From: Escherichia coli
GTDB lineage: Bacteria; Pseudomonadota; Gammaproteobacteria; Enterobacterales; Enterobacteriaceae
DNA length: 64,000 bases
Assembly (NCBI RefSeq): GCF_048403405.1
Contig: NZ_CP183129.1
Reading direction: 5' to 3' (one strand)
The notes below the pieces were generated by a model. The model saw nothing but the letters and a program-made list of their open reading frames with translations. It did no database searches and had not been told where the DNA came from. Of the stretch, positions 45,194 through 45,547 are shown one piece after another (position 1 is the stretch's first letter; each line of letters begins with the position of its first letter). Made by a program: the position numbers and the translations under genes.

Positions 45194-45547
45194 AACGATC
45201 TCCTGAAGAAGAGGTAACCGGGTATTCCACACACCCGGAATGTTGTGCACTCACTCTAATTTTCAAAAGTAATCACAACAAGATTATTTATGATTAAATG
45301 TGACGCGACCCGCAAATAATTCCACATGGATAGAGTGGGATTCACACAACGAAACAATTATTCATTTAAATTTATTCAGTTAATTGAATTACACATTCCA
45401 TTAAATCTTTCCATACTCAAAATCAACAACAACTTCCCTGGCAAAAAGTCAAAAAATGGTCATTGCCTTCCTGAAAAAATAGTGTCAGGATTAATCAAAA
45501 CCAATCAAATATTGATTCGAATTGAACTATCATGAAGGTAAATGGCG
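45194..45547. promoter_or_regulatory. divergent ulaA / ulaG control region
   Basis: 354-bp AT-rich spacer between divergent ulaABCDEF and ulaG; known target of UlaR, CRP and IHF; individual sites not resolved by eye. Confidence 0.6.

What the first reader, a model, noticed from the sequence alone, without database searches (positions are those of the whole stretch)
45194..45547. 354-bp AT-rich divergent control region of the ula regulon
The spacer between ulaA and ulaG is long and AT-rich, with repeated tcaa and attga motifs (for example ccaatcaaatattgattcgaattgaa at 45501-45526). It is known to integrate UlaR, CRP and IHF input. I cannot assign the individual operators by eye.
Basis: partly seen in the sequence, partly recalled or inferred. 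Interest (0 to 1): 0.25.

Follow-up and report, generated by a model that had tools for sequence, protein, structure and literature searches.

The report
Known ascorbate (ula) operon control region
This is the well-studied switch region between the divergent E. coli vitamin-C (ascorbate) utilisation genes ulaA and ulaG; its repressor, CRP and IHF sites can be placed inside it by cross-species comparison, so the finding is correct but ordinary.

Summary
Window 45194-45547 is exactly the 354-bp ulaA(-)/ulaG(+) spacer. It is 350/354 identical to E. coli K-12 and has 34.5% GC against 51.5% for the window.

The real repeat is the pentamer AATCA/TGATT at exact 10-bp steps. It forms two 35-bp arrays, 45261-45295 over the ulaA core promoter and 45493-45527 over the ulaG start.

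Comparison of 81 enterobacterial spacers, plus 4 more distant ones, shows these elements near-invariant:
- both pentamer arrays;
- a CRP-like site at 45299-45314, about -61 from the inferred ulaA start;
- weak promoter hexamers on each side.

One central site, 45370-45382, keeps the IHF consensus across species.

Array-to-array distance clusters at 231-232, 240-244 and 251 bp. The two arms either side of the IHF site change in steps of about 10 bp, which fits a phase-constrained repression loop.

Side observations: this strain carries rare substitutions in the IHF core and in the ulaG operator, and the ulaA leader has a structurally conserved hairpin. Transcription start sites and protein binding are inferred, not measured. 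Interest is low.

The parts
45194..45547 (.). Whole ulaA/ulaG divergent intergenic control region (354 bp, 34.5% GC)
   Evidence: Gene boundaries. 350/354 identical to K-12. Composition.
45200..45203 (-). ulaA ribosome-binding core GGAG
   Evidence: CTCC on the + strand is about 90% or more conserved in 81 species.
45218..45238 (-). Conserved hairpin in the ulaA mRNA leader (CCGGGUGU-GUGGA-AUACCCGG), about +9 to +29 of the inferred start
   Evidence: Fold. Mean z-score is -1.59 over 72 distinct leaders, against -0.28 for ulaG leaders. In a 15-sequence alignment 96.6% of cells pair, 4 of 8 pairs show compensatory changes, and slid controls give 17-40%.
45245..45246 (-). Inferred ulaA transcription start (not measured here)
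   Evidence: Lies 7-8 nt downstream of the conserved -10 hexamer. This is inference.
45253..45258 (-). ulaA promoter -10 hexamer TAGAGT
   Evidence: Five of the six positions are kept in 80-81 of 81 species and the sixth in 69. The offset to the operator array is fixed in 81/81.
45276..45281 (-). ulaA promoter -35-like hexamer TTGTTG (17-bp spacer), lying inside the operator array
   Evidence: Sequence, conservation. It is a weak match; the consensus promoter scan reported nothing.
45261..45295 (.). UlaR operator array A: four pentamers at 10-bp steps, TTTCA (AATCA in most species), AATCA, AGATT, TGATT. Covers about -15 to -49 of the ulaA promoter
   Evidence: Score 17/20 and one of the top two hits in the window. 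The pentamer cores are kept in 77-81 of 81 species. The same array is found in 4 distant Enterobacterales.
45299..45314 (.). CRP-like site TGTGACGCGACCCGCA, centre 45306.5, which is -60.5/-61.5 from the inferred ulaA start
   Evidence: The only match in the spacer with 2 or fewer mismatches. TGTGA is kept in 80-81 of 81 species and CGCA in 77-81 of 81, with a variable 6-bp spacer. Its offset from array A is fixed in 79/81 and in 4/4 distant species.
45370..45382 (+). Predicted IHF core (WATCAANNNNTTR position). This strain reads ATTTATTCAGTTA (3 mismatches); a 2-mismatch core ATTCAGTTAATTG lies 4 bp further on at 45374-45386
   Evidence: This is the only aligned position outside the operator arrays that keeps the IHF consensus: 29/81 species with 1 or fewer mismatches, 8 perfect, 67 with 2 or fewer. 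C at 45373 is present in 72/81 species and in K-12, but is T here.
45463..45468 (+). ulaG promoter -35 hexamer TTGCCT
   Evidence: Both T positions are kept in 81/81 species, G in 74 and C in 72.
45483..45491 (+). ulaG promoter extended -10, TGTCAGGAT (pattern TGnCAnnAT)
   Evidence: T in 79, G in 81, n variable, C in 70, A in 80, A in 76 and T in 78 of 81 species. Fixed 10-bp offset to array G in 72/81.
45493..45527 (.). UlaR operator array G: AATCA, AATCA, TGATT, TGAAC (TGATT in most species).
   Evidence: Score 18/20, the best hit in the window. Conservation; inverted repeat I1.
45534..45538 (+). ulaG ribosome-binding site GAAGG
   Evidence: Sequence. Conservation is only partial: the second G (45537) is kept in 69/81 species, while the other positions keep the window base in 24-53 of 81.

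Best explanation
This is the known divergent control region of the E. coli L-ascorbate (ula) regulon.

Proposed layout:
- Two weak sigma-70 promoters face outward.
- Each overlaps a 35-bp array of four AATCA/TGATT pentamers at 10-bp steps, so all four lie on one face of the helix.
- These arrays are the UlaR operators. Array A (45261-45295) covers the -35 and spacer of the ulaA promoter. Array G (45493-45527) covers the ulaG start.

Proposed mechanism:
- Without ascorbate, tetrameric UlaR occupies both arrays. Their centres are 232 bp apart, about 22 helical turns.
- Bridging the arrays closes a repression loop, helped by an IHF-induced bend at a central site (aligned position 45370-45382).
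- Ascorbate-6-phosphate converts UlaR to non-binding dimers and opens both promoters.
- cAMP-CRP at 45299-45314 sits at a class I position (about -61) and activates only ulaABCDEF.

Shown here: gene identities, near-identity to K-12, the motif architecture, its cross-species conservation, and the spacing pattern.
Taken from the literature: that UlaR, CRP and IHF act here, the four operators, and the tetramer-to-dimer switch.
Inferred: which bases each protein contacts, the transcription start sites, and the loop geometry.
For: Identity: NCBIfam equivalogs for UlaA, UlaB, UlaC, UlaG and UlaR. 5422 of 5426 E. coli genomes match, annotated ulaG/ulaA. The K-12 spacer has the same length with 4 differences.

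Operators: the two arrays are the top two pattern hits in 64 kb, and 0 of 2000 shuffles reach 17/20. Their pentamer cores are near-invariant in 81 species. They are also the top two hits in each of four 9.7-kb loci from Edwardsiella, Budvicia, Brenneria and Serratia.

CRP: both half-sites are conserved around a variable spacer, at a fixed 38-bp offset from array A in 79/81 and 4/4 species.

IHF: only one non-operator position retains WATCAANNNNTTR across species.

Spacing: array-to-array distance is 231-232 in 11 species, 240-244 in 69 and 251 in 3, with outliers at 226 and 246. The arms are 109 / 118-119 / 129 bp and 112 / 122-124 / 133-134 bp, whereas the two leaders vary freely between 48 and 96 bp.

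Literature.
Against: No binding or start-site data could be obtained.

The consensus promoter scan finds no promoter. A published prediction places different hexamers (PMC3946193).

The CRP consensus match alone is not above chance across the window: 22 matches against 25 expected.

The window strain's own IHF core is poor, with 3 mismatches.

The species are phylogenetically related, so the spacing clusters are not independent events, and the helical period cannot be estimated from them. Edwardsiella, at 226 bp, is out of phase.

The operator pattern was derived from this region.
Confidence: 0.85

Rival explanations
1. The two operator arrays act independently as local roadblocks, with no functional loop. 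Spacer length would then be conserved only because few indels have occurred.
For: Period analysis cannot resolve a helical repeat, because the 242-bp class dominates. Edwardsiella has 226 bp, a GC-rich centre and no IHF-like site. The species share ancestry.
Against: The centre of the spacer is otherwise free to vary: about 24% divergence within E. coli and low conservation between species. Yet the indels in either arm come mostly in steps of about 10-11 bp, in several lineages and on different arms. Buttiauxella has both 119+112 and 119+123; Escherichia has 109+123; Superficieibacter has 109+133. The ihf deletion derepresses the ula genes. From memory, unverified here: the Campos 2004 abstract reports that each promoter needs the other's operators for full repression.
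Confidence: 0.12
2. The AATCA/TGATT arrays are bound mainly by a protein other than UlaR, for example IHF, whose core WATCAA they resemble.
For: Positions 45503-45515 (+) and 45505-45517 (-) match the IHF consensus with one mismatch. Matches at these positions with 2 or fewer mismatches recur in 69-70 of 81 species. A 2024 preprint says the IHF site at the ulaG promoter is at an unknown location.
Against: Purified UlaR selects this spacer in genomic SELEX. The literature describes four UlaR operators, which fits two arrays of two pentamer pairs. The arrays co-occur with ulaR in all 85 loci. The TTR part of the IHF motif is not kept at these positions: no perfect match in 81 species.
Confidence: 0.08
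3. The spacer is simply AT-rich DNA silenced by H-NS, and its motifs are chance.
For: GC is 34.5%. H-NS is flagged for the ulaG/ulaA spacer in the table of PMC3946193. TCAA and ATTGA counts are at chance level.
Against: The blocks are near-invariant across 81 species at fixed offsets. The pattern score was never reached in 2000 shuffles. H-NS binding may add to specific control but cannot replace it.
Confidence: 0.04
4. The spacer encodes a small protein (the 69-codon ORF at 45326-45535, + strand) or a small RNA.
For: The ORF is listed mechanically.
Against: In the 81-sequence alignment only 6 sequences (the window and its Escherichia relatives) lack a 10-bp segment that aligns between 45348 and 45349, which is a frameshift relative to the other 75. 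Conservation over the ORF is poor. Rfam gives no credible match, only a chance lncRNA hit at E = 0.13.
Confidence: 0.02

Closest known systems
E. coli K-12 ulaG-ulaABCDEF divergent control region (Campos et al. 2004, J Bacteriol 186:1720; Garces et al. 2008, Biochemistry 47:11424)
   Same: Same locus and same 354-bp length, 350/354 identical. Same regulators according to the literature I could read.
   Different: There are four substitutions. 45362 T, 45373 T and 45377 C lie in or next to the predicted IHF core; the exact 61-bp haplotype is found in only 4 of 5426 genomes. 45508 A lies in operator array G; the exact 61-bp haplotype is in 19 of 5426 genomes. I could not check the published operator coordinates.
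GlpR control of the divergent glpTQ-glpACB region. GlpR is a DeoR-family tetramer acting with tandem operators, CRP and IHF (recalled from memory, not checked here)
   Same: A DeoR-type sugar-phosphate-responsive repressor, operator repeats in helical register, a divergent promoter pair, and CRP and IHF inputs with action at a distance.
   Different: A different operator sequence and inducer. UlaR scores far below the cut-offs of the GlpR, SrlR and AgaR models.
Classical repression loops with helical phasing (araO2-I1, lac O1-O3, gal OE-OI, deo O1-O2-OE)
   Same: Two operator sets bridged by an oligomeric repressor, with loop formation dependent on a whole number of helical turns and, for gal, on an architectural protein.
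   Different: Here the phasing evidence is evolutionary: spacer lengths and arms change in steps of about 10 bp. It is not experimental. The loop spans two divergent promoters, each carrying a four-pentamer array.
Class I CRP-dependent promoters (CRP centred at -61.5, as at lac)
   Same: The conserved TGTGA-N6-nCGCA site is centred 60.5-61.5 bp upstream of the inferred ulaA start.
   Different: The start site is inferred. The repressor array lies between CRP and the -10 hexamer.

Membership tests
ula regulon divergent control region (E. coli type) | Lies between divergently transcribed ulaA (PTS IIC) and ulaG (lactonase), with ulaR downstream of ulaG | tested here: met
   NCBIfam equivalogs for UlaA, UlaB, UlaC, UlaG and UlaR; RefSeq annotation.
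ula regulon divergent control region (E. coli type) | Sequence identity with the characterised K-12 spacer | tested here: met
   354 bp in both, with 4 differences.
ula regulon divergent control region (E. coli type) | Four UlaR operators, two at each promoter, sharing a conserved sequence | tested here: met
   In silico only. There are two arrays, each of two direct plus two inverted AATCA pentamers. They are conserved in 81+4 species and overlap the promoters. 'Four operators' comes from PMC3219644. Physical binding cannot be tested with these tools.
ula regulon divergent control region (E. coli type) | UlaR protein binds this DNA and is released by ascorbate-6-phosphate | not testable with these tools
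   Literature only: SELEX peak in the spacer and the tetramer-to-dimer switch.
ula regulon divergent control region (E. coli type) | IHF site that assists repression | tested here: inconclusive
   An IHF consensus is conserved at aligned position 45370-45382 in most species. This strain has 3 mismatches there and K-12 has 2. The site location is described as unknown in a 2024 preprint.
Class I CRP-activated promoter | CRP site centred near -61.5 (or -71.5, -82.5, and so on) on the same face as RNA polymerase | tested here: inconclusive
   The site centre at 45306.5 is 60.5-61.5 bp from a start inferred from the conserved -10 hexamer. The start site is not measured.
Phase-dependent repression loop | Operator separation constrained to whole numbers of helical turns | tested here: inconclusive
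   83 of 85 species lie within 2.5 bp of 22, 23 or 24 turns of 10.5 bp, and the arms change in steps of about 10 bp. However, the species are related, half of all integer distances would qualify, the period is not resolvable, and Edwardsiella is an exception.
Sigma-70 promoters | -35 and -10 hexamers with a 16-18 bp spacer | tested here: inconclusive
   The consensus scan finds none at 9/12 or better. Conserved weak hexamers exist: TTGTTG-17-TAGAGT, and TTGCCT-17-CAGGAT preceded by TG.

The most novel reading that the evidence does not exclude
Three small things may be undescribed:
1. The database-unmapped IHF site sits at 45370-45382 (K-12 4419791-4419803) in a loop whose two arms evolve only in whole helical turns.
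2. This strain's rare paired substitutions (C to T at 45373, T to C at 45377) move the IHF-like core by 4 bp. Together with the rare 45508 A in the ulaG operator, this could change repression strength in this lineage.
3. The ulaA leader carries a structurally conserved hairpin that could be a new stability or translational control element.
Probability: 0.25. Interest if true: 0.4.

Novelty: already known. Interest (0 to 1): 0.22.

Why it matters
The ula switch decides when enteric bacteria ferment vitamin C, and it is a textbook-style case of a DeoR-family repressor using a DNA loop with IHF and CRP inputs. Confirming it adds nothing fundamental. The cross-species map does give base-level predictions for the operators, the CRP site and the unmapped IHF site. 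It also gives evolutionary support for helical phasing and points to a conserved leader hairpin. All of these can be tested cheaply.

Tried and rejected
- The consensus promoter/terminator scan found nothing. Both promoters are weak, so I relied on conservation.
- The Rfam scan gave only a chance lncRNA hit at E = 0.13, so the sRNA idea was rejected.
- TCAA and ATTGA enrichment is not above chance.
- The CRP consensus is not enriched across the window. The IHF consensus with 1 or fewer mismatches has no central hit in this strain.
- Attempts to read Campos 2004, Campos 2002 and Thomason 2015 failed. The Kim 2012 start-site supplements have no ula entry.
- The supplements of PMC3219644 contain no operator figure as text.
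- RNAalifold on a 38-sequence leader alignment predicted no pairs, because the variable stems cannot be aligned by sequence. A narrower 15-sequence alignment worked.
- The periodogram of operator distances cannot estimate a helical period.
- There is no full four-pentamer operator in the ulaG-ulaR spacer.
- The promoters predicted in PMC3946193 were rejected because their hexamers are not conserved.
- The 69-codon ORF in the spacer was rejected because of frameshifting indels.
- I first thought the 45508 A hit a strictly conserved operator base. It does not: across species the position is C in 55, T in 20 and A in 5.

Full report
**Observation.** Window 45194-45547 is exactly the non-coding spacer between ulaA and ulaG. 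ulaA is on the minus strand with its ATG at 45193. ulaG is on the plus strand with its ATG at 45548. The upstream in-frame ATG at 45542 is not conserved: the base at 45544 is a gap in 71 of 81 species. NCBIfam equivalog models identify UlaA, UlaB, UlaC, UlaG and UlaR, the last at 46720-47475. A 751-bp query spanning the spacer matches 5422 of 5426 complete E. coli genomes, annotated ulaG/ulaA. The K-12 MG1655 spacer (NC_000913.3 4419626-4419979) has the same 354-bp length and differs at four positions. The window is in the reverse orientation relative to K-12, so K-12 coordinate = 4465173 minus window position. GC is 0.345 against 0.515 for the window, and only 1.1% of 354-bp windows are as AT-rich.

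The TCAA/TTGA and ATTGA counts are at chance level for this composition: 9 against 7.7 expected, and 3 against 2.6.

**The real repeat.** Repeat finding gave three leads:
- a direct repeat, TCAAAAGTAATCA at 45263 and TCAAAACCAATCA at 45495, 232 bp apart;
- an imperfect palindrome around the first copy;
- an imperfect palindrome around the second copy.

Resolved against other species, the unit is the pentamer AATCA/TGATT at exact 10-bp steps, arranged as two direct copies followed by two inverted copies:
- Array A, 45261-45295: TTTCA, AATCA, AGATT, TGATT.
- Array G, 45493-45527: AATCA, AATCA, TGATT, TGAAC.

The pattern AATCA-N5-AATCA-N5-TGATT-N5-TGATT scores 17/20 and 18/20 at these two places. 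They are the two best hits in the 64 kb, and none of 2000 dinucleotide shuffles of the spacer reaches 17. Because the pattern was read off this region, the independent test is conservation.

**Phylogenetic footprint.** I fetched 80 ulaG loci, one per species, from Enterobacteriaceae and relatives. I located ulaA and ulaG in each and aligned 81 distinct spacers. The conserved blocks are:
- Pentamer cores, kept in 77-81 of 81 species on the ulaA side and mostly 71-81 on the ulaG side. The last two bases of the fourth ulaG-side pentamer and the first two bases of the second are less well kept.
- A minus-strand -10 hexamer TAGAGT at 45253-45258, with five positions kept in 80-81 of 81 species and one in 69.
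- A plus-strand -35 TTGC at 45463-45466.
- An extended -10, TGnCAnnAT, at 45483-45491.
- TGTGA at 45299-45303 paired with CGCA at 45311-45314, across a freely varying 6-bp spacer.

Offsets are rigid. The ulaA -10 is 8 bp from array A in 81/81 species. TGTGA is 38 bp from the start of array A in 79/81. The ulaG extended -10 is 10 bp from array G in 72/81.

Four more distant Enterobacterales, with UlaR 70-75% identical, were reached through UlaR homologues: Edwardsiella, Budvicia, Brenneria and a Serratia. They show the same two arrays as the top two hits in each 9.7-kb locus. They also show the same 38-bp offset to TGTGA-N6-TCnCA.

**Inferred layout.**
- ulaA promoter: -35 TTGTTG (45276-45281), 17-bp spacer, -10 TAGAGT, start about 45245-45246.
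- Array A spans about -15 to -49 of that promoter.
- The CRP-like site (centre 45306.5) is at -60.5/-61.5, a class I position.
- ulaG promoter: -35 TTGCCT, 17-bp spacer, TG-extended CAGGAT, start about 45498.
- Array G spans about -5 to +30 of that promoter.

Both promoters are weak, at 7/12 consensus matches, which is why the consensus scan reports none. The CRP consensus match is the only one in the spacer with 2 or fewer mismatches. Such matches are not enriched across the window (22 against 25 expected), so the case for this site rests on conservation and position. It is too far from the ulaG promoter, about 190 bp, to act there. That fits the published statement that CRP activates ulaABCDEF. 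The start sites are inferences; no mapped data were accessible.

**IHF.** In this strain no central sequence matches WATCAANNNNTTR with 1 or fewer mismatches. Across the alignment, however, one position stands out. At the column of window 45370 (+), 29 of 81 species have 1 or fewer mismatches, 8 are perfect (for example AATCAATAAATTA and TATCAACATATTG), and 67 have 2 or fewer. The only other recurrent positions overlap array G, whose AATCA resembles the IHF core. The conserved columns are T72, C73, A74, T81 and A82 (last two digits of 453xx), which are the informative IHF positions. [quoted passage not shown] This placement (K-12 4419791-4419803) may therefore be useful, although Campos 2004 may already contain it.

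**Spacing.** The distance from array A to array G falls into classes:

| Distance (bp) | Species |
|---|---|
| 231-232 | 11 |
| 240-244 | 69 |
| 251 | 3 |
| 226 | 1 (Edwardsiella) |
| 246 | 1 |

The classes correspond to about 22, 23 and 24 turns of 10.5 bp. Each arm is also stepped. Array A to IHF is 109, 118-119 or 129 bp. IHF to array G is 112, 122-124 or 133-134 bp. The exceptions are 111, 115, 125 and 127.

The steps occur on different arms in different lineages. Escherichia has 109+123. Two Buttiauxella species have 119+112 while two others have 119+122-123. Superficieibacter has 109+133.

By contrast the leaders vary freely, from 48 to 96 bp, and the central sequence is poorly conserved. 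This is the pattern expected for a phase-constrained loop.

It is not proof. The species are related, half of all integer distances would fall within 2.5 bp of a whole turn, the period cannot be estimated, and Edwardsiella is out of phase.

**Mechanism.** Accessible papers state the following:
- UlaR represses as a tetramer on four operators, and ascorbate-6-phosphate converts it to non-binding dimers (PMC3219644).
- The strong UlaR SELEX peak is in this spacer.
- UlaR and IHF repress and CRP activates.
- An ihf deletion derepresses ulaADEFG.

Combined with the map, the most likely working is as follows. UlaR occupies both four-pentamer arrays and occludes the ulaA core promoter and the ulaG start. 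The arrays are bridged through a loop of about 232 bp bent by IHF. The inducer dissolves the complex. CRP then recruits RNA polymerase to the weak ulaA promoter. H-NS binding to this AT-rich spacer is flagged in one dataset and may add to silencing.

**Strain-specific alleles.** The four differences from K-12 are 45362 T, 45373 T, 45377 C and 45508 A.
- The first three sit in or beside the predicted IHF core. They remove the conserved C and create an equivalent TTCA 4 bp further on. The exact 61-bp haplotype occurs in 4 of 5426 genomes.
- 45508 A makes the central palindrome perfect (AATCAAATATTGATT). It is rare: the exact 61-bp haplotype occurs in 19 of 5426 genomes. The position is not strictly conserved between species.
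- Functional consequences are speculative.

**Within-species pattern.** Against the phylogroup B2 strain JJ1886, both ends of the spacer, about 110 bp each, are nearly identical. The central 45306-45444 is about 24% divergent with no length change. This matches an independent report that the ulaG regulatory region is unusually variable (PMC11106028).

**Verdict.** The finding is correct and the system is already known. The added value is a base-level, conservation-backed map and a few testable side observations.

Noticed in passing
window 45218-45238 (- strand): Hairpin in the ulaA mRNA leader (CCGGGUGU-GUGGA-AUACCCGG). The sequence differs between genera but a stem-loop persists at about +8/+9. 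Mean folding z-score is -1.59 over 72 distinct leaders, against -0.28 for ulaG leaders. In a 15-sequence alignment 96.6% of cells pair, 4 of 8 pairs show compensatory changes, and the G-U pairs fit the ulaA sense strand. I found no description of it. In V. cholerae the ulaA 5'UTR is an sRNA target.
   Followed up: partly
window 45362, 45373, 45377: Rare substitutions relative to K-12 in and beside the predicted IHF core. They remove the conserved C (present in 72/81 species) and recreate a TTCA 4 bp downstream. The exact 61-bp haplotype occurs in only 4 of 5426 complete E. coli genomes.
   Followed up: partly
window 45508: A instead of the usual C makes the operator-G palindrome perfect (AATCAAATATTGATT). 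The exact 61-bp haplotype occurs in 19 of 5426 genomes. The position varies between species: C in 55, T in 20, A in 5.
   Followed up: yes
window 46660-46719 (ulaG-ulaR spacer): The last 60 bp or so before ulaR is almost invariant in 84 species. It contains TTTCA (46676), TATCA (46683) and AATCA (46696) but no full four-pentamer array. This may underlie the weak UlaR SELEX peak reported upstream of ulaR. The hairpin CCGGATAGCG/CGCTATCCGG at 46627-46659 is not conserved.
   Followed up: partly
window 45306-45444 vs L002 (JJ1886): The central loop DNA is about 24% divergent between this strain and a B2 strain with no length change, while both promoter/operator ends are nearly identical. This is consistent with PMC11106028, which calls the ulaG regulatory region particularly variable.
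   Followed up: partly
L084 2957-3335 (Edwardsiella): The arrays and the CRP site are present, but the arrays are 226 bp apart (about 21.5 turns), the centre is GC-rich, and no IHF-like site is found. This is an exception to the phasing pattern.
   Followed up: no
window 45326-45535 (+): A mechanical 69-codon ORF lies inside the spacer. It is not conserved and is frameshifted relative to 75 of the 81 aligned sequences by a 10-bp indel.
   Followed up: yes
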